54,748 nt of DNA from Hadesarchaea archaeon (GTDB lineage: Archaea > Hadarchaeota > Hadarchaeia > Hadarchaeales > WYZ-LMO6). The notes beneath the pieces were generated by a model. It was not told the DNA's origin. It made no database searches and worked only from the letters and a program-made list of their open reading frames with translations. A program made the position numbers and the translations under genes. Of this stretch, positions 1,942-52,451 are shown piece by piece (the stretch's first letter is position 1; each line of letters begins with the position of its first letter). The stretch is taken from assembly GCA_029259185.1 (NCBI GenBank), contig JAPDJF010000042.1, positions 1 through 54,748 on the forward strand, read 5' to 3'.

Positions 1942-2095
1942 CTAATCCAGAAATCTGGGAGCATTAGGTTTTGTTGGATCCAAACCGCTGGGGTGGTGCA
2001 TGGTTTTTGGAGTGCCCCGACCGTTCACGGGATTTTTTTCGAGGTTCGGCTCTTCAGTCGGTGAGATTAAATAAAAAAGGGAAAAATCCATTTAT

Positions 2096-2220
2096 TGGTT
2101 GGCGGCCATAGCGGCGGGGAAACACCCGGTCTCGTCCGATCCCGGAAGTTAAGCCCGCCAGCGATCTGGAGTGTACTGTCCTGCGCAAGCGGACGGGAAA
2201 TCCAGGACGCCGCCAACCAC
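2096..2220 (+). rRNA. rrf: 5S rRNA (not linked to 16S/23S here)
   Basis: Terminal helix TGGTTGGCGGC/GCCGCCAACCA; conserved CATAGCGGCGGGGAAACACCCGG and CCGGAAGTTAAGCCC; TATA-like ATTAAATAAA upstream. Confidence 0.95.
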
Positions 2221-2257
2221 TTAGATTTAATTTGGGTTCGGAGACAGTTTCTGTGGT

Positions 2258-2363
2258 GCCCTGGTGGTGTAGCCCGGTCTAATCAGGAGGGAAAAACACC
2301 CCTTGAGACCAAACATGTAGGCCTGTCGAGCCTACGCCTCGGGTTCAAATCCCGGCCAGGGCG
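2258..2363 (+). tRNA. tRNA-Asp(GTC) with a 31-nt D-loop intron (2282-2312)
   Basis: Acceptor GCCCTGG/CCAGGGC; anticodon arm TAGGC-CTGTCGA-GCCTA. BHB motif: GGTC/GACC helix with TA|A and AA|A bulges. Confidence 0.92.
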
Positions 2364-2441
2364 CCTCCCGTTAAGGTTTAAAAACCGGAGGGAGAAAAAC
2401 GAAAAAGATAAATATAATTAATTTTCAGCCTTCCGTTAATT

Positions 2442-2516
2442 GGGCCTGTGGCGCAGTCTGGCTAGCGCACCGGCCTTTTAAGCCGGGAGTCGTGGGTTCG
2501 AATCCCACCAGGCCCG
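2442..2516 (+). tRNA. tRNA-Lys(TTT)
   Basis: GGGCCTG/CAGGCCC acceptor; CCGGC-CTTTTAA-GCCGG anticodon arm; GTTCGAATC T loop. Confidence 0.95.
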
Positions 2517-2537
2517 TACAAAGAGTAGGGTGAGATA

Positions 2538-2780
2538 ATGGGGGGAGAGTTCGACCCGAGGAGGCATGTGCTGGTGCCCAAACATGAAATCTTGTCAGAA
2601 GAGGAAGTAAAAGAAATATTGGCCCGCTACAGGATAAAACCATCTCAGCTCCCTTGGATAAAGAGTTCCGATCCCGTGGTAAAAGCTATAGGAGCGAATC
2701 CGGGTGATATATTAAAAATAACCAGAGAGAGTCCTACAGCAGGGAAGGCGGTAGTGTATAGGTATGTTGTCAAGGGGTGA
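2538..2780 (+). CDS. rpoH: DNA-directed RNA polymerase subunit Rpo5 (H)
   Basis: [20 protein letters not shown] and RESPTAG motifs; first gene of the rpo operon. Confidence 0.97.
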
Positions 2781-5700
2781 AAAGACGGAGACCCTCAGGG
2801 ATCGATGGGCCCTAGTGGAGGCCTTCTTCAAAGAGAAGGGACTGGTCAGGCAGCACCTCGATTCCTACAACGACTTCATCGAGAATAGATTACAACAGGT
2901 TATCGATGACATAGGGGGAATAGATCTCGATATCGAGGGGATCCACGTCGAGTTCGGAAGAGTCGCCGTGGGAGAGCCTTGGTTCCGGGAGGCTGATGGC
3001 TCCCACTCCAGAGACATGGACGCAACACCTAACCATGCTAGGTTGCGTAACATGAGCTACACAGCCCCGATCTATTTGGAGATGAGCATAGTCAGGAACG
3101 GTCATAAGGATCCTCCCCAGACGGTCTACATCGGTGAGATCCCCGTGATGCTTAAGTCCAAAATATGTAAACTCTATCGGAAGACCGATGAGGAACTCAT
3201 AGCGATGGGCGAAGATCCCTTGGATCCGGGAGGATATTTTATAATTAATGGCTCCGAGCGCGTGATAGTTGTCCAAGATGATCTTGCCACCAATTCTATC
3301 TTGGTGGAGCGGGATGAGCGCTTGGGTGTGGAGGTGGCAAAGGTTTTCTCAAGCAGACGTGGTTTCCGTGCTTTGGTTGTAGTGGAGAGAAAGAAGGATG
3401 GTCTCCTCAGGGTTTCGTTTCCAGCGGTTCCAGGTCAGCTCCCGTTTGTTGTCGTCATGCGCGCACTGGGGTTGGTAAGGGATCGCGACATCGTGGAAGC
3501 GGTATCCGATGATCCGGAGATAGTCAGGGAGCTGTTTGAGAATCTGAGGGAGGGAATAGAGATAAAGACGGAGAGGGATGCTCTTGACATAATAGGGAAG
3601 AGAGTGGCCATAGGGCAGGCCAAAAGCTACAGATTACAACGCGCTCAAGAGGTCCTCGATAAATATCTTCTCCCCCACATAGGTTCCTCTCCCGAGGACA
3701 GGATAACCAAAGCGTACTTCCTGGGGAGTATGGTGGAGAAAGTCGTGGAACTTGCACTGGGGAGGAGGAGTGTTGATGATAAAGATCACTACGGAAACAA
3801 GCGCTTGAAACTCAGCGGGGATATGTTGGAAAATATATTCAGGGTGGCGCTGGTCAACCTCATCAAAGACATAAAGTACCAACTTGAGCGCTCCTATGCG
3901 AGAGGGAGGGAGCTAAACCTGAGAACCGCGGCTAGGGCAGATCTCCTCACCGAGCAGATCCGTCACACCCTCGCCACAGGCAACTGGCCAGGTGGGAGGA
4001 CGGGTGTGAGTCAACTTCTGGATCGAACTAACTACATAGCAACCCTCTCCCATCTCCGGAGGATCATATCCCCCCTGAGCAGGAGCCAGCCCCACTTCGA
4101 AGCAAGGGATCTCCACCCCACCCATTGGGGGAAGATATGTCCGTGTGAGACACCAGAGGGTCCGAACTGTGGGCTGGTCAAAAACTTGGCCCTCACGGCG
4201 GAAATCTCAACGGGGACGGACGAAGGGGTGGTAGAAAAAATGCTCTACAAACTCGGGGTCTCCCCCATAAAGAAGGGAGGTGAACGTCGTGGGAAAGCGG
4301 TGGTCTTTCTGAACGGACGTCTGATAGGCACGGTGGAAGATGGAGCGAAGTTCGCAGAGGAGATAAGGAACAAGCGAAGGAGAGGGGAGTTAGACGGGCA
4401 AGTGAACATCAGGTTCAAGAGCGATACGAGCGAGGTGGTAATATGGTCGGATGCGGGGAGGGTGCGCAGACCTCTGATTGTAGTTGAAAAGGGAAAACCG
4501 TTGGTAACCGACCAACACGTGGAGATGGTTAGGACCGGGAGGCTGAGTTGGAGCGATCTAGTCGGGTCGGGCCTGATCGAGTACTTGGATGCCGATGAGG
4601 AGGAGAACTCTCGCATTGCGGTTAACCCCGACGAGCTCACCCCCCAACACACTCACTTGGAACTCCACCCACTCACCATCTTGGGGATAAGTGCAGCGTT
4701 GATCCCGTATGCCGAGCACAACCAGTCTCCGCGTAACACGTATGGGGCCAACATGGCGAAGCAGGCGCTCGGAGTGTTTGCCACCAGCTTTCACGCGAGG
4801 GCTGACACACGCGCTCACTTCCTCCACTACCCCCAGATCCCGATGGTTAGGACGAGGGTAATGGATGTCATAGGATTCGACAAGAGACCTGCTGGTCAGA
4901 ACGTGGTGGTTGCGATTGCGTGCTATGGGGGATACAACATGGAGGATGCGCTGATCTTGAATAGGGATTCGATGGAGAGAGGATTCGGGAGGACGACGTC
5001 CTTCAGTATCTATGAGGCGGAGGAGGGAAGGTACTCCGGTGGGCAGAGGGATAAATTCGAGATCCCAAGTGAGGAAATAAGGGGATATTCGGATGCCTCC
5101 CACTACAGCAACCTGGGGGAGGATGGAATAGTCGAGGTTGAATCGAGGTTAAGCGGGGAGGACGTGGTCATAGGTAAGACAAGTCCCCCAAGGTTCTTCG
5201 AGGAAACAGATGAGTTCGGTGTGAAGGTGGAACAGGGGAGGCGAGAGAGCTCGGTCAGGATGAAGCCAGGGGAGGAAGGGATTTCGGATATGGTTTACAC
5301 CGTGATGACAGCCGAGGGAAATAAATCGGTTCGCGTCAGGGTGAGGAGCCTGAGGATACCGGAGATAGGCGACAAGTTTGCCTCTAGACATGGTCAGAAG
5401 GGAGTGGTAGGTCTTATAATGGATGGTGTGGACATGCCGTTTACCGAAAGTGGAGTGGTTCCGGATATAATCATAAACCCTCACGCCATACCCTCTCGCA
5501 TGTCGATAGGTCAGTTGCTTGAGATGATAGCGGGAAAAGCTGGAGCACTGGCGGGCACGAGGATAGATGGGACGACGTTTGAGGGGGTTTCGGAGGAGGA
5601 GATAAGGAAAATACTCTTGGACAATGGGTTTACTCCTCTGGGCAAGGAAGTGATGTACAACGGTATGACGGGAGAGATCATACCGAGCGAGATATTTATA

Positions 5701-11707: not shown

Positions 11708-11796
11708 TCGGTGTCGTCGATGACGTCGAGCAGATATCTAACTTGATGGCATGCAGATTTCCCCACTTTTAGTCCACCCCATACCCTCCATGTGGA

Positions 11797-12896
11797 GGTG
11801 AGTAACAGTTGCCGATAACTTCACAAATACTAATACAATTGATGGTACTAATGAGAATGAAGGAGGCCGCCGAGTACACGGGATTACACCCCCATACGCT
11901 ACGGAAGTACATCGATCAAGGAGTGATAAGGGGAGTGAGGATTGGAAAACATCGTGGAGAAGGCGGAGCTGGACAGATTGATGGGTGTTGTGGAAAGAAG
12001 ACCCGCCGGAGTGGCCATTTACCCGAGGGTCTCGGCAAAGAAACAGCAGGATGCCGGGAACCTGAACAGGCAGAGAGAAAGGCTGCTGAGCTACTGCGTA
12101 ACAAACAAACTGGAAGTCGTCGATGTAATCGAAGACGTGGCTTCTGGGGTAAACGAGAACAGGAAGGGATTGAAGAAGCTGTTCGAACTCGCCAGAAGGG
12201 GCGAGATAGATACGGTTGTGGTGGAGTACAAAGATCGGTTGGCGAGATTCGGCTTCGAATATCTGAAGGAAGCTCTCGCTTCCTATGGCGTAAAAATCAT
12301 AATTGTGGAGGAAGACGAATCAAAAAGCCCGAACGAGGAACTCCTCGAGGATCTAGCGATAGTAACTTCATTTTCGGCGAGGCTCTCCGGGAAGCGTGGA
12401 GCAAAAAAAAATTGTGCAGGCGATAAAGGAGGAGCACCATGTCTAAGATAACAATCCCCGGCGCGCTTGTGCGCATTGATCCACGCGATGAGGTTCGCCT
12501 GGAAGAACTCTACCGCCGCTTAGGCAACGCTAGGCGGCGAGCGTACATCTTAAACAACGCGGCGTTCCGAAAGCCGAGATCGAGCGGATTTTGCAGGAGC
12601 AGCTGGGGCTGAACTTCCGGTACGCAAAAGATGCCTACCGATGCTCATCTTCGGATGAGATCCCGTGTGGTGTCGCGTCGGATGAGGGCGATGGAAGTCC
12701 GAGGCGCTGGCTAAGCGCGGGAAGCGGGCTTACCGCCCTGCATCAGGCCGAAAGCTTGGTGCACGATGAAGTTGCGGTTAGCTGCAACGGAGGCTACCCG
12801 GAAATCCCTGGTATCCGGGGGCTTCGCTTTTTGCGGAGCTTGAAAACCAACCTACCATGTCTTCAGGTGGAGATATGTTAGGTTTCGGTGACCAGG
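11797..12896 (+). mobile_element. Degenerate IS607-family element (frameshifted tnpA, internally deleted tnpB)
   Basis: MerR-type HTH plus serine recombinase, followed by a tnpB N-terminal remnant (MSKITIPGAL...ERILQEQLGLNFRYAKDAY) and a structured 3' region. Putative GG-bounded ends (GG|TGAGTAAC ... GTGACCAGG); end positions are inferred. Confidence 0.75.
11851..12451 (+). pseudogene. tnpA: IS607 TnpA serine recombinase, frameshifted near 11955
   Basis: MRMKEAAEYTGLHPHTLRKY HTH in one frame; IYPRVS...DVASG...KDRLARFGF catalytic domain in another. Confidence 0.88.
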
Positions 12897-13560
12897 TTCT
12901 TCGCGAGCCTAGACGATGCCGAGATCGCAATGGGGGCAACTACTACTGGCAATCCGTCTACGAGTTGCTCGAGGAGCTGGGATACCACGTTAGCCTAGCC
13001 CACCCGATGCGAACGCGAATCATCGCCAGCGCCCGCATCAAAACCATGTTCGTGATTCAAGGCCTTGATGCGCCTGCTGGAACTCAACTGGTTGCCCGAT
13101 GCTTACTGCCACCCAAAGAGATCCGCGACCCGCGCGAACTCGCACGCCTACACGCTTCCTGACGTGCGAGGCTGTGCGCTTGAAAAATACACGCGGAACT
13201 GGCAAAGCTGGGCCCGAGGCACGAAGGCAATCACGGAGCGCGGCAGGCGCTGGTTGAGGAATCTGAACTCGAGACCAACGTATGCCCGGATGTGCTCGAT
13301 GTGGTTGAGCAGAAGCCGGTGCGCAAGAAGGGAAAGCGGGCGGCGATTGTGGCAACGGCACGCAAGCTGCTCGCGGCAATCTACCACATGCTCCTGCACG
13401 GAGAGATCTTTCGTGGCTGAAGAGGGGGCAGGGGCACCCCGGTTTTCGACGTGAGGGCACAACCCCGAGGGTTTGATCGGGGCTCCTCGAGCGCAGCACC
13501 ATAGGGGGGCATAGATCCGGATAGGCGAACGGTCGACATTCGATCAAACTCCCCACGAAC
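12897..13560 (+). mobile_element. IS110-family transposase remnant plus 3' non-coding end
   Basis: Fragments across frames: YYWQSVYELLEELGYHVSLAHP...IASARIKT, LLELNWLP..Y.PPKEIRDPRELAR, and C-terminal AIVATARKLLAAIYHML (stop 13418-13420). Confidence 0.8.
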
Positions 13561-15367: not shown

Positions 15368-15452
15368 GCCGGGGTAGCCAAGCCAGGTAAGGCGCACGCC
15401 TTGAGAGCGTGTGGCCCTTCGGGCCTCGAGGGTTCAAATCCCTCCCCCGGCG
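15368..15452 (+). tRNA. tRNA-Ser(TGA)
   Basis: GCCGGGG/CCCCGGC acceptor; CACGC-CTTGAGA-GCGTG; long variable arm GGCCC-TTC-GGGCC. Confidence 0.95.
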
Positions 15453-15564
15453 CTTACGGGGTAGAGGCCCCATCTCCACAGGCGTTCGCTCGGGCCGTCC
15501 CAGCTCCATGTGTCGATCCAGAGCGCGCTCGGCTGTCTTTGAAGGATACAGGCGGAACCTGTGG

Positions 15565-15697
15565 CTAAGCACGCCCCTGCCCCACTTCTTTCTTCATCAG
15601 CTCCGCTATTGCTTCATTGATGGTCTTGTCCTTCGTTATGGTCCGCTTGAATTCCTCCCCCCAACCTATCTTCAACCGTGATGGTGTATTTCGTCAT
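15565..15697 (-). pseudogene. Ribbon-helix-helix-like small regulator, +1 frameshift in a G run
   Basis: Removing one G gives MTKYTITVEDRLGEEFKRTITKDKTINEAIAELMKKEVGQGRA* (beta strand plus two helices), overlapping the tnpB start. Confidence 0.6.
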
Positions 15698-15711
15698 CAC
15701 AATATGTTACT

Positions 15712-15746
15712 ACAAACTACTAACAAACTACTATATACAAACTACT
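15712..15746. repeat. Three direct repeats of ACAAACTACT
   Basis: Perfect 10-mers at 15712, 15723 and 15737, just upstream of the RHH gene. Confidence 0.9.
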
Positions 15747-15819
15747 CTATATATGCGTTCCACCTCTCATCTCCTCCCTTTCGGAATGGACTTCCCGGCG
15801 GTGGAGTTAAAACAGGCAA

Positions 15820-17051
15820 TCAGGCTGTTTCGGGTTCCAAATCTTTAAACCCTGAAACTTCTCCGCTCCCCTCCGCCGGGTTCACCTCATCGCTTATGCT
15901 CGAACACCCCGGCCTCACGGGATGCATCGCGGAGCTATCGGGGTAGCCTGGGATCCCCTCATCCTTGGCTCTTCTCAGCAGATTTATGCAGGCGTTCACA
16001 TCTCGATCCAACCCGCACCTAGGGCACTCCTTCAGGGAACCTATCTCGCCCCCGCATCTGGAGCAAACCTTGGACGTGTTGTGCGGGTTGACATATGCCG
16101 GCACCAGCCCGCTGAGCCTGAACTTGTAGTCGAGCAGGGACTGAAGCCTTCTGAAGGGCCAAGAGTTCAGCCTCCGCTTCAAGCGCTTGGATCTTTCCGA
16201 AACAGGCTGAACCTTTCCGGTGCGGCTGTTGAAGCGTTTGGACTTCCGGTTGACCGATTTCCTCACGTGCTTCAGGTTTTCGAGCACGGGCTTTAGTTTC
16301 TGATCTCCGCAGAGTGAAGCTATTTTCTTACTCGATTTATGGAGCACGTCGTCCACCCTGCGCTTCTCCCTCCTGCCGTACTTCGCCATAAGCCGTTTGA
16401 ACGATTTCGACTCCCTCGGCAGTTTCGCTTGGATGCGCTCCCTTTTCCGGCGTAGGTCTCCCGTATTCTCCTGATCTCCGAGAGGTCGACTCTGAGGGAT
16501 CCGCCACTCGTATCCACGCCCGTGACGTTCGTCTCGTTCAGGTCGAGCGCAAGCAGGCCTCTCGGTTCGGCCGGTGAAATTTCCCGCTTGAACGGGATTA
16601 TCACGCACTCGTCGTTCAGGAGGATTTCCCCCGTCCTCGCCCCTGACTCTAGGAACCTCCGTTGGTAGTCTCCGACGACCAGCTTCAGGGTTGCGAACTC
16701 CTTCGGCCTGACCGAGACCCTGAGGGTTCCATCCGGGTTCAGCTTTGTGACCAGCTTCGAGAGCCTGATGATCGGACGCTTGGCCACGGGGATCCCTTTG
16801 TGCTTGTGCTTCCTCCACGACCTGACAATGGAGAGAGCTGTTCGATATGCCGTAACCAAAAACTGGGTGTTGTAGTCGTATCGCTTTTTGAGCTTCGCGT
16901 AAGTAAGGTGGTGAATTCTGCCCAAGGAAGTTACTCTTGCCTCTACCGCCGCCCGGATGCAGGAGTTCACCATATCCAGGTAATCTTTCAATAACTGCCG
17001 AATCTGCTCGTTCGGTTCATATCTGAACTGAACGGATTGGATCACTTCCAA
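15820..17051 (-). pseudogene. tnpB: TnpB/Cas12f-like RNA-guided nuclease (~410 aa), single frameshift near 16451
   Basis: RuvC-I LALDLNE, RuvC-II VLENL, Zn finger CSRC..CPRC and RuvC-III DRDVNA. The two ORFs join at ETY|RRKRERIQ. Confidence 0.88.
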
Positions 17052-17109
17052 TTTTATCCCAAGGTAAATACGCCTTACAGAAAAGCTTATTTGAACTTGA
17101 AACAGCCTG
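15821..17109 (-). mobile_element. tnpB-only element with terminal inverted repeats and target-site duplication
   Basis: Left end CAGGCTGTTTCGGGTTCCAAAT; reverse complement of right end CAGGCTGTTTCAAGTTCAAAT. Flanking direct repeat ACAGGCAAT at 15812-15820 and 17110-17118. Confidence 0.85.
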
Positions 17110-17696
17110 ACAGGCAATGATAGGTTATCGTGAAGTGATGGCATATCCTGTGACCGGTGAGCACGAATTTTCGGGAAACGGTTGTGGTTCTGGGGTGAGG
17201 ATGTTTTACCCCGTGTACTCCCCGAGGAAAATCTCTTAGAAGGTTCTGTAGAGGTACCCGGAGGAAAACTCTGGCGTTTCGGAGTTCCAGTCAGTCCGTT
17301 TTACAGTTCACGTTTCTTCAAATACTCCGGAGGTGGACAAAAACGTGTTTCAGGGCACTCGTGGACTACCAAGTGATCAGTGCAACATGTTGGACGGGAG
17401 CGCGTGAGATGCTCACAGCGGCGTGTTCTCGGTTTTAGGCAAGACAAGTTCTAAGTTCTACTCGTTACCTTCTTTAACCAATTGATTCGCTCGTTAGCGA
17501 ACCTTGCCGATCCGCAGGAATGGGCGGTTGAGATTCGAGCAAAGTTTAATTAGGGTGTTACATTGTAGAGCATAGTTGGATGTCAGATTTGGAGTACTCT
17601 ATACCTAGGAGAGAAAGAGGAGACATAGTTTTTAGCATGTGGGCTGCAGGTGATCGCGGTGCTTGCACTTGTATTCAAATCGTGTGAGGCCGGCTG

Positions 17697-18122: not shown

Positions 18123-18304
18123 GGCCTCAAGAGCGGTGGCCAGCGGTTTCTTTCAATTCGCTCAAGAGTGGCGAAAATCTAACGAACTTCATCTCGACCA
18201 CTCCAAGGACTCAGGATTATCTCCATCCACAAAAATGGCTAAAAGGGTAAACCGGACCTGAATTTATAGAGCAGTAGCTTACTCAGTTATTCTAGGTGGA
18301 AATA

Positions 18305-21121
18305 ATGCCTTGGACCGGTAAGCTGAGACAGATAGATGAGGTGCGGTGGGAGATCCCGAGGGACTATAAGCCAGGCATGCGTGTCCCCGCTCGGATCTAT
18401 GCAGATACCGAGCTACTGAACGAGATGCGTAGAGACCTAACGCTTGAGCAAGCCGCTAACGTCTCTTTCCTCCGAGGTATCTACAAGTACAGCATCACGT
18501 TGCCCGATGGGCATCAAGGTTACGGGTTCCCGATCGGGGGAGTGGCGGCCACCGACGCTGAAACCGGTGTCATCAGCCCAGGGGGCGTTGGCTACGATGT
18601 GAATTGTTTGGTCCCCAGCACCCCCGTTCTCACCCGTGATGGGTATCGCCGGCCCATAGGGGATTTGAAGAGTTGTTGGGCTCATTCTAAACTCACGGTT
18701 TTCGATCTAAACGACCATAAAGCAGAGAGTGCTCCGGTGTTCAGATTCATAGAAATCCCCCCAAACACAGAACTCTACCGCCTACGCACGGTTAACGGTA
18801 GAGAGATAACTGCCACCGGCGACCACCCAATTTTAACATCCGACGGGATGCGCTTGGTGCGTGAAATAGATCAGGGTACCTTAGTAGTTGTTTACCCGTT
18901 CGAAGGAGTAGATTATGACCCGCCACCTGATGAAACAGTACTAGAGGAAAAGGATTTTGAACCCCTTGTCGCCAGGGAACTGAAAAAACGCGGTCTTCTG
19001 CCTCTCCGCATGAACCATCCGAAAATTGGCGTATTGGCGCGATTGGTTGGTTACATACTCGGAGATGGTTGGTTCGATACTTTGGTGGGAAGGCGTGAAA
19101 AGGGGAGAAACCCACGACATAGGGTGGTAATCAGCATATCTGGCGAGATCGATGGTCTAGAGAAAATCAGAGAGGATATTAGAGATCTTGGATTTAGACC
19201 CTCTCGTATTTATTCGGAGAATCGGAGGCGCACGGCAAAAACTCTGGATGGCTCATCCGAAACCACTTGCCACTGTATCCGTGCGTCTTCCAGACCATTT
19301 GGCCTATTTATAAACAAGTTGGGGGTCCCGCTCGGCGAAAAGATCGTCGCCGATTTCGAGGTTCCTTCTTGGATAAGAAAAGCCCCCCTCTGGGTCAAGA
19401 GAAACTTTTTAGCTGGTCTCTTCGGTGCAGAGCTATCCAAACCGTGCACGTCTAGAGAACACCCATATACTTTCAACGCGCCTTCAATAACGGTTCCAAA
19501 GAGAAAGGATCTCAAAGATTCGGGCTACAAGTTTTTGAGTCAGATCCGTGAGTTGCTTGGGGAGTTTGGAATAGACACTTTTGACGTTTATGAGATTCCG
19601 TTAACCACCAACACCGTGGGTCTCAGGTTATCCATCTCAGGAAACGATGAAAATCTTTTGAAACTCTGGTCGAAAATCGGCTATGAATTTAATGAGGAAC
19701 ATCACTTCCTCGCAGCATTGGCAACCGAATACTTACGTCTGAGGTTAAAATACAAAAGAGGATCAGAAAACAGATCAAAACCGACCACTTTTCCGACTTT
19801 CGACGAATACGTCAAGAAAATAAGAACAGAGCTTGGTCGCTCAGGATTGGTGTACGACACCGTTGCGAGAAAGGAAGTTATCCGTGGATTTAGAGGATTT
19901 GTGTATGACTTTACAATTGATCACAAGGATCACAACTTCGTTGCAAATAGCTTTGTTGTTTCCAATTGCGGAGTTCGTCTCCTCCGAACAGATCTCGATA
20001 AAAATGATGTCACACCCAAGCTCCACCAGCTCATCGAAACCCTCTTCCGAAATGTTCCATCAGGATTGGGAAGCACTGGTCACATCAAGCTCACCCCAGC
20101 TCAGCTGGACTTGGTCTTGGAGAACGGTGCGCGGTGGGCGGTCGAGAATGGATTCGGATGGGAAGAAGATCTGGAGCGACTGGAGGAGGGGGGGTGTCTG
20201 GTGGGGGCTGACGCGAAGCGGGTAAGTTCCCAGGCCAAGCAACGCGGGTTCCCGCAGCTCGGCAGCCTAGGCTCCGGAAATCACTTCTTGGAGGTCCAAA
20301 TAGTCGATCGCATCTTCGATCCAGAAGTTGCACGCAAGTTCGGTTTGACCCACCAAGGACAGGTTACGGTAATGATTCACACCGGGTCACGGGGTCTTGG
20401 GCATCAAGTTTGTTCCGATTACCTGCGCACGATGGAACGCGTGGTTAGGCGGTACGAGGTATCACTACCGGACAGGGAACTCGTGAACGTTCCTTTCAAG
20501 TCTGAGGAAGGACAAGCTTATTTCTCCGCGATGGCATGTGCCGCTAATTACGCTTGGGCAAACCGCCAGATGATAACCCACTGGACGAGGGAGTCCTTCG
20601 AGCAAGTTTTCGGGAAGGAAGCTGAGCACTTGGGCCTGCACATAGTTTATGATGTGGCCCACAACATCGCGAAACTTGAGGATCACGAGGTAAACGGTGA
20701 GAGGAAGAAAGTTGTGGTACATCGTAAAGGTGCCACTCGGGCATTTGGACCCGGGCATCCAGAAATTCCATCGATTTATCGGGAGGTCGGACAGCCGGTG
20801 ATCATCCCGGGGGATATGGGGACTGCCTCTTACCTCCTAGTCGGTACCCGCCGAGCTATGGAGGAGACCTTCGGCTCGACGGCACACGGGGCGGGGAGGC
20901 ACTTGAGCAGAACCGCAGCGCTGAGGCAGTTTAGGGGGGAGGAGGTGAGACGGAATCTCAGCTCTCGCGGGATTTTCGTCCGCGCTGCCAAGCTCTCGGT
21001 GATAGCTGAAGAGGCTCCCGATGCCTACAAGGACATAGATAGGATAGTAGAGGTCTCCCACAGGGCCGGGATAGCTCGAAAAGTTGCGAGGCTCGTACCC
21101 CTAGGTGTAGCCAAGGGTTAA
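18305..21121 (+). CDS. rtcB: tRNA-splicing ligase RtcB, intein-containing
   Basis: [18 protein letters not shown][intein][24 protein letters not shown] and STAHGAGR motifs. Confidence 0.97.
18605..19966 (+). mobile_element. Intein (454 aa) with LAGLIDADG homing endonuclease in RtcB
   Basis: Begins CLVPST; block B ATGDHP; LVGYILGDG and LAGLFGAE; ends VYDFTI...FVVSN followed by extein Cys. Confidence 0.93.
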
Positions 21122-39928: not shown

Positions 39929-39964
39929 TGGTACACGTTGTAGTTAGCCCCTCCCTAGTTTTAA

Positions 39965-40450
39965 CTTTACCGCCTGGAAGTTCTCTTCCGTAAGGGAGGG
40001 GATGAAAAGGCGGGGCACACATACAGACGCGCTGAAGAAACACGTAGAGGCAGGGGCCATGCTTAGCCACAGGTTCCGCCTGTATCCTTCAAAGACAGCC
40101 GAGCGGAAGCTGAACCGTCAGATGGTACTTTGCAGGAGGGGAAGGGGCTGGTTCAAGACGCTGAACTACAACCAGTCGGGCTTCAAGCTTGAGAGCGGAA
40201 AGCTCGTGCTCTCGAAAATCGGTGAGATCCCCATCAAGCTTCACCGAAAGATTAAGGAAAAAGTGAAGGGGGTTATCGTCAAGCGGGAAGGAGAGGTACT
40301 TCGCAGAACGTCCCTGAGGGATTCGATAGGGAGCTGGAACGGCCCGAGCGAACGCCTGTGGAGATGGGGCCTCCACCCCGCGTTCCGGCGCAAGCCGTGG
40401 TCGCTGGGCATGTTCCGGCGCTGAGGCAGGAGCCATGCACAAGTGCGGTA
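39965..40450 (+). mobile_element. IS200/IS605 remnant with internally deleted tnpB
   Basis: TTTAA then left-end hairpin TTCTCTTCC-GTAA-GGGAGGGGA; MLSHRFRLYPS, YNQSGFKL and LSKIGEIPIKLHR fragments; 3' part shared with 15456-15510. Confidence 0.82.
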
Positions 40451-51334: not shown

Positions 51335-51423
51335 CCGCCCCCTTTACACTTCTGGTGTGGATGTTATAGTTTTTTGGAAGGTAACGATGGGGTGATGTAG
51401 CTGCTACCTAAAACAATACTGCA

Positions 51424-52026
51424 ATGCGCGAGGAAAAACTGTACTCAACCGGCAAAGCCGTCAGACTGCTGGGTATTCATTTCAACACGATGAAGAAGTG
51501 GATCTACGCTTGTAAGGTCGATGCGATAAAGACACTCGGAGGGCAATACCGCATCCCCGAAAGCGAGATCAAGCGTTTGCTCGGCCAGCCGGCGCCGAAA
51601 AATCAGGCGATAATCTATGCGAGGGTATCGTCCGCAGACCGGAAAGACGATCTGAAGCGCCAGCGGGAAATGCTTCGGGAGTACGCAAAAGAAAGAGGGT
51701 ACAAAGTGGTCGCGGTCTTCGAGGACGTGGCGAGCGGGCTGGAGGACGATAGGCAGGGGCTGAAAAAAGTGTTTGATGTGCTTCGAGCGGGCGGAGCGGA
51801 TGTTGTACTCGTGGCTTGGAAGGATCGCCTTACGCGGTTCGGTTTCGGTTATCTGAAAAATCACGCCGAGGAACTCGGCGCTAGGGTGGAGGTCGTGAAC
51901 GAACGGGAGGAACACACACCCCATGAGGAGCTGGTTGAGGATCTTCTAGCTATCGTCACCAGCTTCGCAAGTAAACTCTACGGTATGCGCTCGAACAAAA
52001 CAAAAAAAAGTGGTGGAGAGCGTTAA
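51424..52026 (+). CDS. tnpA: IS607 TnpA serine recombinase
   Basis: MerR-type HTH; IYARVSS, DVASG, KDRLTRFGF and ELVEDLLAIVTSF motifs. An A8 run near the end may shift the last codons. Confidence 0.92.
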   Translation: MREEKLYSTGKAVRLLGIHFNTMKKWIYACKVDAIKTLGGQYRIPESEIKRLLGQPAPKNQAIIYARVSSADRKDDLKRQREMLREYAKERGYKVVAVFEDVASGLEDDRQGLKKVFDVLRAGGADVVLVAWKDRLTRFGFGYLKNHAEELGARVEVVNEREEHTPHEELVEDLLAIVTSFASKLYGMRSNKTKKSGGER

Positions 52027-52028
52027 AC

Positions 52029-52379
52029 GTGCGATCCGTTAGTTCGGCCCGATTTGTTACCCCGCCCTTGACACGGCGGAAACAAGAGGTGCTAAAACAA
52101 TTGCTCGACCGGTTCGCGGCCTCGGTGAACTTTTGCATTTGGAAGTGCCTTGAGCACAAGGTCACCTCTCGCGCCTCGCTGCACCGCGTTGCCTACGAGG
52201 AGTGGAAGTCGAAGTTCAACCTGGCGACTCACTGGTTCCACTCGGCCGGGCAGGCCGCCACACAGATGCTCCGCTCTTGGCGAAAGCTCTGCCGCCAGGG
52301 CCAGGCCGATCCGAACCCGCTGGCAGAGGCGCAAAAAATCCCGTGTCAGACTGGTGTACAGTTTGATACGGAATTTTAG
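52029..52379 (+). pseudogene. tnpB: IS607 TnpB N-terminal fragment
   Basis: VNFCI..KVTS..LH..Y..RSWRK aligns with the N-terminus of the 15820-17051 TnpB; no RuvC motifs. Confidence 0.8.
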
Positions 52380-52451
52380 GACGGTCCAGCTTTGAAACTC
52401 GGGGCAGCGAAAAATCTTCAAGGTTTTATTCAGGATCCGTTGGGGGTGAAG

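What the first reader, a model, noticed from the sequence alone, without database searches (positions are those of the whole stretch)
15812..17118. TnpB nuclease carried inside a TIR/TSD-bounded element: a candidate prokaryotic DDE-mobilised OMEGA system
Seen: a 1,289-bp unit containing only a TnpB gene, with all three RuvC acidic residues and the Zn finger present and one frameshift. It is bounded by inverted repeats (11/11 terminal match CAGGCTGTTTC, extending imperfectly to about 21 bp). It is flanked by an exact direct repeat ACAGGCAAT (9 bp, or 7-bp CAGGCAA if the TIR begins TCAGG). The ORF stop lies at the very end of the element, and a hairpin (TTTCAGGGTTT...GAACCCGAAA) includes the TIR, so flanking DNA would follow as guide. 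Its N-terminus aligns with the IS607 TnpB fragment at 52029. Established: IS200/IS605 (HUH) and IS607 (serine recombinase) elements make no TIRs or long TSDs, whereas DDE transposases do; eukaryotic Fanzors derive from TnpB captured by other transposon types. Inference: an IS607-type TnpB was captured by a non-autonomous TIR element mobilised in trans by a DDE transposase, a Fanzor-like capture in an archaeon.
Basis: partly seen in the sequence, partly recalled or inferred. Interest (0 to 1): 0.85.

Follow-up and report, generated by a model that had tools for sequence, protein, structure and literature searches.

The report
Solo tnpB element with inverted-repeat ends
This is a real, multi-copy jumping gene in an archaeon that carries only the RNA-guided nuclease TnpB yet has the inverted ends and duplicated target site typical of a different class of transposons, and the enzyme that moves it is not found.

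Summary
Window 15821-17109 is a 1,289-bp element with only a frameshifted tnpB. It has an 11/11 terminal inverted repeat (15/18 extended) and an exact 9-bp direct repeat abutting both ends. The genome holds at least 4 right-end and 3 left-end copies, each in different flanks.

The pattern recurs. Related solo-tnpB elements (45-50% protein identity and lower) in other archaeal MAGs and metagenomes also have terminal inverted repeats and abutting 6-9-bp repeats of unrelated sequence. These include a 124-bp MITE and a 29-bp ends-only element. Typical IS607 and IS605-like elements in the same genome lack these features.

The right-end repeat lies inside a covarying terminal hairpin of the presumed omegaRNA.

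- No transposase lies in cis in about 120 loci.
- No element with matching ends encodes one.
- No tested DDE family is shared by the six host genomes.

The idea is also not new in kind. DDE-linked TnpBs with inverted ends, and solo copies moved in trans, are already in print, as are Fanzors in TIR/TSD elements. I read this as a new archaeal variant of a known kind, with an open question about what moves it.

The parts
15812..15820 (.). Direct repeat copy 1 (target-site duplication, 9 bp). It is also the first bases of the would-be guide.
   Evidence: Identical to 17110-17118 and abuts the end.
15821..15838 (-). Right-end (tnpB 3' side) terminal inverted repeat. The first 11 nt are perfect.
   Evidence: 15/18. 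Homology with 3 other copies starts here.
15821..15865 (-). Terminal stem-loop of the presumed omegaRNA. Its 3' arm and tail are the inverted repeat.
   Evidence: MFE fold. The stem arms differ but stay complementary in relatives, read by eye.
15821..15960 (-). omegaRNA-like structured region overlapping the 3' end of the ORF.
   Evidence: The nucleotide alignment of 11 relatives gives two helices. Nine of 12 pairs show a two-sided change that keeps the pair.
15820..15822 (-). tnpB stop codon TGA, completed by the first flanking base.
   Evidence: ORF 15820..16818 includes the stop. All 4 right-end copies are followed by that base.
15823..16449 (-). tnpB C-terminal reading frame (RuvC-II, zinc finger, RuvC-III).
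   Evidence: Translation P0001, Pfam TNB, alignment.
16445..16447 (-). Frameshift site: one base missing relative to other copies.
16446..17051 (-). tnpB N-terminal reading frame (WED/REC, RuvC-I). The likely TTG start is at 17049-17051.
   Evidence: Translation P0002. The start aligns with the Met of P0003-P0005.
17092..17109 (-). Left-end (tnpB 5' side) terminal inverted repeat. The last 11 nt are perfect.
   Evidence: Homology with copies on C12 and C3 ends at 17109.
17110..17118 (.). Direct repeat copy 2.
15457..15811 (-). Context, not part of the element: an internally deleted copy of a different, IS200/IS605-like repeat family ('B'). Element A landed within a few bases of its end.
   Evidence: About 16 copies with a hairpin end and differing flanks.

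Best explanation
The region is one decayed copy of a 1.29-kb insertion sequence. Its only cargo is tnpB plus the structured RNA region at the gene's 3' end.

Shown:
- It has true terminal inverted repeats and sits between two copies of a 9-bp target sequence.
- It is multi-copy, with different flanks at each copy.
- It belongs to an archaeal clade of solo-tnpB elements, many of which have terminal inverted repeats and abutting 6-9-bp duplications of unrelated sequence (mostly 7-8). These include miniature derivatives without tnpB.

Inferred:
- Insertion goes through staggered cuts in double-stranded target DNA. That is the hallmark of DDE-type (or similar) transposases acting on both ends, and it differs from the Y1 (IS605) and serine (IS607) routes used by other tnpB elements in the same genome.
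- The enzyme is supplied in trans and remains unidentified.
- TnpB and its RNA would read out of the right end. The guide would then be the duplicated bases plus the following flank.
- A T-A-(A/T)-C-like motif just 5' of the duplication on the left side would then serve as the TAM of the empty site, letting the nuclease cut unoccupied alleles (homing or retention).
For: Ends and repeats:
- TIR, direct repeat and unit size.
- Copies: 4 right ends and 3 left ends in different flanks. Contig depth is about 3.5x at the right end and 2.7x at the left end relative to single-copy flanks.
- The C12 left end and C41 right end share 7 of 8 flank bases in register. The other cross-pairings give at most 4 of 8.

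Generality:
- Among 28 unique homolog loci with a detectable TIR, 9 share a string of 6 nt or more between the two flanks. Only 2.4% of mismatched pairs do, and 0 of 5000 permutations reach the observed mean.
- In 13 hand-picked complete elements, 10 have an exact abutting repeat of 6-9 bp.
- A 29-bp ends-only element has a 7-bp repeat (L142). A 124-bp MITE matches 6 of 7, counted by eye (L184).

Contrast within the genome:
- IS607 copies end in GG with no repeat.
- Element B has a hairpin end, an invariant TTAA before the differing flanks, and no TIR.

RNA:
- The right end folds into a terminal hairpin in 9 of 10 relatives.
- Upstream helices covary.

TAM-like bias, counted by eye:
- In 8 CAGG-type elements the four bases before the repeat are T in 7 of 8, A in 7 of 8, A or T in 8 of 8, and C in 5 of 8.
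- The base after the repeat on the other side is G in only 2 of 8.

Precedent: DDE-linked and solo TnpBs with inverted ends (PMC10691335, section 9).
Against: - No transposase gene lies between the ends or recurs next to tnpB. Among 605 neighbouring ORFs of loci L008-L100, the largest cluster is 4 ORFs from 2 loci. I did not run Pfam on them.
- No other element type carries these ends in G000. In G044, the 9 listed of 10 exact matches are tnpB-element ends.
- The DDE genes found in G000 have unrelated ends. These are IS4/5-like on C51 and C15, IS630-like on C1 and IS6-like on C4.
- G044 had no hit to any of five DDE families.
- Each tnpB subclade has its own TIR sequence. A trans enzyme would therefore have to co-diverge with tnpB without ever being linked to it.
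- Repeat length varies from 6 to 9 bp even among close relatives.
- One large subclade shows only 2-4 matching bases.
- No empty site was recovered.
- The assemblies are incomplete, and repeats are often left unassembled.
Confidence: 0.55

Rival explanations
1. The elements are autonomous. TnpB, whose RuvC domain has the same RNase-H-like fold as DDE transposases, acts alone or with its RNA to cut and join the ends, or at least chooses the target.
For: - tnpB is the only gene in every element.
- TIR sequence changes together with the tnpB subclade.
- The right-end TIR is part of the RNA that TnpB would bind.
- The duplication appears anchored to an asymmetric TAM-like motif on the tnpB-upstream side (by eye).
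- No host-wide co-occurring transposase was found.
- A published puzzle points the same way: solo tnpB elements move in a Haloquadratum strain in which all IS200-type tnpA genes are pseudogenes (PMC3119063, passages).
Against: - Experiments on IS608, ISDra2 and IS607 found TnpB dispensable for or inhibitory to transposition (as cited in PMC6188088, passages).
- No strand-transfer activity of TnpB is known (recalled).
- Miniature copies without tnpB show only that action in trans is possible.
- The TAM-like bias rests on 8 elements and was seen post hoc.
Confidence: 0.12
2. It is an IS607- or IS605-type element moved by the serine or Y1 TnpA genes present in the genome. On this reading the flanking repeats reflect target preference or recombination at short homology, not staggered cuts.
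For: - The genome has about 10 serine-recombinase hits and a Y1 gene.
- The TnpB is closest to IS607-linked ones.
- IS607 elements have subterminal inverted repeats (PMC6188088, passages).
- A neighbouring solo-tnpB clade has IS607-like right ends that finish in GG (read by eye).
Against: - Genuine IS607 copies in the same genome end in GG, have no terminal IR and no repeat.
- Here the IR is exactly terminal at both ends, and the repeats are 6-9 bp of unrelated sequence at each site.
- A 2-bp crossover or single-strand insertion does not produce that pattern (established mechanism; PMC6188088 and PMC13565253, passages).
- The left end lacks the hairpin that Y1 enzymes need. This is my reading; the left end was not folded separately.
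Confidence: 0.1
3. A trans-acting enzyme of another class moves it, for example a Cas1-type integrase or an undescribed nuclease or recombinase that recognises inverted ends and makes staggered cuts.
For: - The same TIR and repeat evidence applies.
- No DDE partner was found.
- Cas1-linked TnpBs flanked by repeats exist in Asgard archaea (PMC10691335, section 9).
- One host here is an Asgard MAG (Jordarchaeales, record title).
Against: - No candidate gene recurs next to the elements.
- Casposon duplications are longer, about 14-15 bp (recalled).
- Cas1 was not searched for in these genomes.
Confidence: 0.15
4. The inverted repeat and direct repeat are chance features of an ordinary immobile tnpB pseudogene.
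For: Only one copy in this genome has both ends on one contig. The gene is frameshifted.
Against: - Homology between copies stops exactly at the repeat ends.
- The flanks differ at each copy.
- The same architecture recurs in unrelated genomes.
- 0 of 5000 permutations reach the observed flank sharing.
Confidence: 0.02

Closest known systems
DDE-transposase-associated TnpB branches (DDE-1 to DDE-6) and their solo derivatives (Altae-Tran et al. 2023, PMC10691335; section 9 and passages read)
   Same: - A prokaryotic tnpB sits inside an element with inverted terminal repeats.
- The tnpB 3' end lies within 250 bp of the element end.
- Solo copies are inferred to be moved in trans.
   Different: - No DDE gene is linked in any of about 120 loci examined here.
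- The review PMC13565253 (passages) names ISL2, IS630 and IS1031 partners. As I recall, those make 2-3-bp duplications, whereas these are 6-9 bp.
Fanzor2* and Fanzor1 in non-autonomous TIR/TSD transposons of eukaryotes and their viruses (Yoon et al. 2023, PMC10711439; passages read)
   Same: - The element encodes only the nuclease.
- It has clear TIRs and short TSDs.
- The TIR is folded into the 3' end of the guide-RNA scaffold.
- The nuclease lineage is related to IS607 TnpBs.
   Different: - This element is archaeal and the protein is an ordinary 405-aa TnpB.
- The duplicated bases differ from site to site, so they would be guide rather than scaffold.
IS607 family (serine recombinase TnpA plus TnpB)
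   Same: The TnpB is related: 31-33% identity to IS607-linked TnpBs in the same genome.
   Different: - No tnpA in cis.
- The ends do not finish in GG.
- The inverted repeat is terminal.
- A target duplication is present. Genuine IS607 copies in this genome show none of these.
IS200/IS605 family, IS1341 group (solo tnpB) and PATE-type derivatives
   Same: Solo tnpB of about 1.3 kb, a subterminal hairpin at the right end, and miniature derivatives.
   Different: - IS605-type elements have no TIR and no TSD, and insert directly 3' of a 4-5-nt motif.
- Element B beside this one behaves that way. Element A does not.
IS6 family (DDE; ends starting GG; 8-bp duplication, as recalled)
   Same: - The duplication length is similar.
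- An IS6-like IS with a 9-bp repeat exists in this genome (C4:8346-9533).
- One distant tnpB subclade (L033 type) shares its first 6 end bases.
   Different: - Element A's ends show no significant likeness to it (shuffle p 0.06-0.99).
- IS6-type transposase was found in only 2 of 6 host genomes.

Membership tests
TnpB / OMEGA RNA-guided nuclease | RuvC D-E-D triad and CxxC...CxxC zinc finger in a TnpB-type protein | tested here: met
   - The residues align with invariant columns D170, E258, D351 and the four Cys of 14 homologs.
- Pfam TNB scores 56.1 bits against a cut-off of 26.3.
- NCBIfam guided_TnpB scores 95.2 for P0003 (cut-off 100) and 118.7 for P0008.
- The window copy itself is frameshifted.
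TnpB / OMEGA RNA-guided nuclease | Structured RNA encoded at the 3' end of tnpB, running to the element end, with the guide taken from the flank | tested here: inconclusive
   - A terminal hairpin is predicted in 9 of 10 relatives.
- Two helices have 9 of 12 covarying pairs.
- No RNA run holds the locus, so no transcript ends are known.
TnpB / OMEGA RNA-guided nuclease | RNA-guided, TAM-dependent DNA cleavage | not testable with these tools
   There is only a post-hoc T-A-W-C bias 5' of the repeat in 8 elements (by eye).
IS200/IS605 | No TIR, no TSD, and insertion directly 3' of a short target motif | tested here: not met
   TIR 11/11 and a 9-bp repeat lying between any motif and the left end.
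IS200/IS605 | Y1 (HUH) TnpA in cis or matching ends on a tnpA-bearing copy | tested here: not met
   The Y1 hits are on C9, C1, C34 and C53. None of the 16 TIR matches lies at those places.
IS607 | Serine recombinase tnpA upstream of tnpB | tested here: not met
   The left end lies 58 bp upstream of the start codon, so there is no room for another gene. The serine-recombinase search of homolog loci hit only the distant L124, L133 and L137, plus a weak hit in L068.
IS607 | Ends finishing in GG, insertion at GG, no duplication | tested here: not met
   Compare (genuine IS607 here).
TIR/TSD transposon moved by a DDE transposase (non-autonomous member) | Terminal inverted repeats at both ends | tested here: met
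   The feature is conserved in relatives.
TIR/TSD transposon moved by a DDE transposase (non-autonomous member) | Target-site duplication of near-constant length and site-specific sequence | tested here: met
   - 9 bp here.
- 6-9 bp in 10 of 13 hand-picked elements.
- 9 of 28 unselected loci against 2.4% of controls.
- The length is less constant than usual.
TIR/TSD transposon moved by a DDE transposase (non-autonomous member) | An autonomous partner with the same ends that encodes the transposase | tested here: not met
   None was found in G000 (94.9% complete) or G044. No DDE family is shared by the 6 hosts. The assemblies are incomplete, so absence is not proven.
IS6 family | Ends like those of a resident IS6-type transposase gene | tested here: not met
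   Alignment of A's ends with the C4 IS6-like ends is no better than shuffles.

The most novel reading that the evidence does not exclude
An old and widespread archaeal clade of tnpB-only elements transposes without any classical transposase. TnpB, an RNase-H-fold nuclease, would act with or without its RNA to recognise the inverted ends (one of which is its own RNA scaffold sequence) and help make the staggered target cut next to its TAM. An RNA-guided nuclease would then double as the transposase, or at least as the target selector.
Probability: 0.1. Interest if true: 0.95.

Novelty: new variant of a known kind. Interest (0 to 1): 0.6.

Why it matters
TnpB is usually described as the passenger of IS605 and IS607 elements, which leave no inverted ends and no duplications. 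This window shows three architectures side by side in one small archaeal genome. The third, with inverted ends plus 6-9-bp duplications and tnpB alone, is shared by elements in Bathyarchaeia, an Asgard MAG, Thermoplasmata and others.

That is the prokaryotic look-alike of the Fanzor-bearing TIR elements of eukaryotes. It could therefore inform how TnpB lineages moved between transposon types.

It also poses a concrete question that can be answered at the bench: what moves these elements, given that no partner transposase can be found. Because the duplicated bases differ at each site, the guide would begin inside the duplication, and the target choice of the unknown enzyme should be tied to the TAM. 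That coupling is testable.

Tried and rejected
Tried without result:
- DNA search of the element in 40 relatives found only a 29-nt chance match.
- A profile search of the whole class (65 genomes) found A-type copies only in G000.
- The plasmid collection held nothing above 27% identity.
- Rfam matched only the tRNA.
- No RNA holder was listed among 8 runs.
- Contigs of 4 runs showed no joint that skips the element, so no empty site was seen.
- The supplements of PMC10691335, which list the ends of the DDE branches, could not be opened.

Considered and rejected:
1. A 16-nt inverted repeat on C15 looked like the sister-clade TIR (12 of 16). It is an inverted duplication of the 5' part of IS607 tnpA.
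2. A 14-nt internal complement of the right end (16197-16210) is not conserved in relatives.
3. The IS6-like IS on C4 as partner: its ends are unlike A's.
4. A 14-nt end pattern in 401 genomes of G044's class: 35 genomes had a match. Apart from G044 (10 matches, none for the reversed control), genomes had 1-2 matches each, much like the scattered hits of the reversed control.
5. The pairing of C3 with C22 as one copy is weak, 5 of 6.
6. The automatic TIR labels in the tree are unreliable. L009 is labelled noTIR although one search shows 14 of 18. I did not use them.

Literature searches for an archaeal solo tnpB with TIR and 7-9-bp TSD found none.
Full report
What is there

Window 15821-17109 (1,289 bp) carries one gene, tnpB, on the minus strand.
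- Its first 11 bases are the exact reverse complement of its last 11. Read 18 nt inward, 15 of 18 agree.
- The 9 bases at 15812-15820 recur exactly at 17110-17118, abutting both ends.
- The protein has the TNB domain (56.1 bits, cut-off 26.3).
- Aligned with 14 intact homologs, it keeps the RuvC D, E, D and the four zinc-finger cysteines.
- The reading frame breaks once near 16446. Copy C19 reads through there. In contigs of two public runs a variant with one extra base exists beside the window's form, and the contig at single-copy depth has the window's form. That run may be the sample the genome came from, so this is not independent.
- The stop codon is completed by the first flanking base.

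It is a mobile, multi-copy element

The genome is 1.27 Mb in 54 contigs and 94.9% complete.
- It holds four right-end copies (C5, C19, C41, C22) and three left-end copies (C5, C12, C3).
- Likeness stops exactly at the inverted repeats, and every flank differs.
- All copies other than the window's are cut by contig ends, and C19 is truncated at its 5' side.
- Contig depth suggests about 3.5 right ends and 2.7 left ends per genome.
- The C12 left flank and the C41 right flank agree in 7 of 8 bases in register, while the other cross-pairings give at most 4 of 8. These two are probably one copy with an 8-bp duplication.

The same genome holds the two classical tnpB element types for comparison

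- IS607: its copies start and end in GG and show no terminal inverted repeat and no flanking repeat. One copy lies in the window at 51389-52386, with an intact serine recombinase gene at 51424-52026.
- Element B: the left flank of element A, 15457-15811, is an internally deleted copy of a family with about 16 members. It has a hairpin end and an invariant TTAA before the differing flanks. This is IS200/IS605-like. The published Sulfolobus islandicus TAM is TTTAA (PMC10640517, passages).
- Element A fits neither type.

The architecture is a property of a clade, not of one locus

- A word-index search found 29 relatives. Three are 76-79% identical and the rest are mostly 44-50% identical.
- Collection scans gave 80 metagenome loci (of 162 confirmed) and 13 genome loci from Bathyarchaeia, a Jordarchaeales (Asgard) MAG, Nitrososphaeria, Alkanophaga and Thermoplasmata. 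Thirty more loci came from five of those genomes.
- Many of these loci have inverted repeats placed 40-100 bp upstream of the start codon and just after the gene.
- In an unselected test on 28 unique loci with a detectable inverted repeat, 9 share a string of 6 nt or more between their two flanks. Only 2.4% of mismatched flank pairs do. The observed mean was reached by 0 of 5000 permutations.
- In 13 complete elements that I picked by hand, 10 have an exact repeat abutting both ends: one of 6 bp, four of 7, four of 8 and one of 9. All differ in sequence.
- Two of the three exceptions (L072, L092) fit an 8-bp repeat with 1-2 mismatches if the element runs 3 nt beyond the detected repeat (my reading).
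- The third exception is a 124-bp MITE with 6 of 7, counted by eye.
- A 29-bp element made only of the two ends has a 7-bp repeat (L142).
- Against this, one large subclade shows only 2-4 matching bases, and I could not settle its true ends.

The right end is also RNA

- The last 40-70 nt fold into a terminal hairpin in 9 of 10 relatives. Its 3' arm plus a 6-nt tail is the inverted repeat.
- The stem arms differ between relatives but stay complementary. I read this by eye.
- Further upstream, RNAalifold finds two helices in which 9 of 12 pairs show a two-sided change that keeps the pair.
- This is what an omegaRNA scaffold ending at the element boundary should look like. No RNA data exist for it.
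- The left end holds only the inverted copy. An AT-rich, TATA-like stretch lies between it and the start codon, so I infer that the left repeat acts as DNA rather than RNA.

Where the nuclease would aim

- The guide would start at the first flanking base, which is inside the duplication.
- In an empty site the bases just 5' of the duplicated segment would therefore be the TAM.
- Counting by eye, in the 8 CAGG-type elements the four bases there are T (7 of 8), A (7 of 8), A or T (8 of 8) and C (5 of 8).
- The first base after the repeat on the other side is G in only 2 of 8. The bias is therefore asymmetric and follows the orientation of tnpB.
- The sample is small and the pattern was seen post hoc.

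What moves it

- No second gene fits between the ends.
- Among 605 ORFs within 2.5 kb of tnpB in loci L008-L100, no family recurs. The largest cluster is 4 ORFs from 2 loci. I did not run Pfam on them.
- Serine recombinases sit beside only the distant homologs L124, L133 and L137, with a weak hit in L068.
- G000 has IS4/5-like DDE genes on C51 and C15, an IS630-like gene with a stop on C1, and an IS6-like IS on C4 with its own inverted ends and a 9-bp repeat.
- None of these has ends like A's. No match with 3 or fewer mismatches in 14 was found, and shuffle p values are 0.06-0.99.
- PF04693, PF12762, PF01610 and PF00872 gave nothing in G000.
- Across the five other host genomes, PF01609 hit one broken gene in G042 and PF13610 hit G041. 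PF12762, PF01610 and PF00872 gave nothing.
- G044 has at least 9 such ends and a MITE, yet had no hit to any of the five families.
- MAGs often lose repeats, so this weakens the trans-DDE reading but does not exclude it.

Relationship to IS607

- The N-terminus matches the IS607-linked fragment at 52029 (24 of 73).
- The closest paralog in G000 is the IS607-linked gene on C11, at 31% identity.
- In a FastTree of 87 TnpBs the A-type trio is a fully supported group. It lies in a polytomy with the other solo clades and apart from the recombinase-linked clade.
- The tree is unrooted, so 'capture of an IS607 TnpB' is plausible but not shown.
- In the class of G000, 9 of 65 genomes have a profile hit at E of 1e-40 or below. 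Only G000's hits are A-type, which suggests recent arrival by transfer.

What is already known

- PMC10691335 (section 9 and passages read) reports six DDE-associated TnpB branches, all with inverted terminal repeats, and solo TnpBs with nearly identical ends inferred to move in trans.
- The review PMC13565253 (passages read) names ISL2, IS630 and IS1031 partners.
- PMC10711439 (passages read) describes Fanzors in non-autonomous TIR/TSD elements, with the TIR and TSD folded into the guide-RNA scaffold.
- Four full-text searches found no description of an archaeal solo-tnpB clade with 6-9-bp duplications. The supplements that might list it were closed.

Verdict

- The DDE attribution is the most economical reading but lacks its key witness, the partner transposase.
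- The concept is a variant of a published kind.
- The open and interesting point is the missing transposase, together with a possible TAM-anchored target choice.

Noticed in passing
window 15457-15811, with a second copy at about 39958-40380: Repeat family 'B'. It has about 16 copies in the genome, including 120-130-bp ends-only forms. It has a hairpin end and an invariant TTAA before the differing flanks. It carries a remnant of a tnpB N-terminus at about 15572 and abuts tRNA-Ser (15368-15453). It looks like an IS200/IS605-type element with PATE-like derivatives.
   Followed up: partly
window 51389-52386 and about 11786-12897: Two IS607-family copies. The first has an intact serine recombinase gene (51424-52026) and an internally deleted tnpB. 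Copies across the genome end in GG with no flanking repeat.
   Followed up: partly
window 18296-21121: A 941-aa RtcB-like ORF that appears to be interrupted by a large insert, probably an intein.
   Followed up: no
G000:C4:8346-9533: An IS6-like insertion sequence: a 294-aa DDE_Tnp_IS240 ORF, inverted ends starting GGTTCT, and a 9-bp flanking repeat. A distant tnpB subclade (L033/L111) shares its first 6 end bases and has 8-bp repeats, as does L125 by eye. This is a lead for a possible IS6-type partner of those subclades.
   Followed up: partly
L142 (G045:C51, about 106421-106449): A 29-bp element made only of the two inverted ends, flanked by a 7-bp direct repeat. It is either a minimal mobile unit or the remnant of an internal deletion.
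   Followed up: partly
L184 (G044:C14:27-150): A 124-bp MITE made of about 100 nt of a tnpB-element left end and about 25 nt of a right end.
   Followed up: partly
G000:C15, about 2000-3700: A 75-bp or longer inverted duplication of the 5' part of an IS607 tnpA gene brackets a DDE_Tnp_1 ORF (2986-3516). This may be an IS inserted between two inverted IS607 fragments.
   Followed up: no
G000:C19:24496 and L021: The C19 copy of element A is cut off at its 5' side at the same point in a metagenome contig from another data set. Unrelated sequence with short palindromes follows upstream. This may be another insertion.
   Followed up: no
L009, L010, L074: just upstream of the tnpB start codon: A conserved 15-nt palindrome sits between the left inverted repeat and the start codon in the sister clade. 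It may be an operator or promoter element.
   Followed up: no
L115, L121, L128, L136, L138 (right-end regions printed): A neighbouring solo-tnpB clade has right ends that finish in GG, with the inverted repeat set back from the end. That is IS607-like, so solo IS607 derivatives and TIR/TSD elements occur in related TnpB lineages.
   Followed up: no
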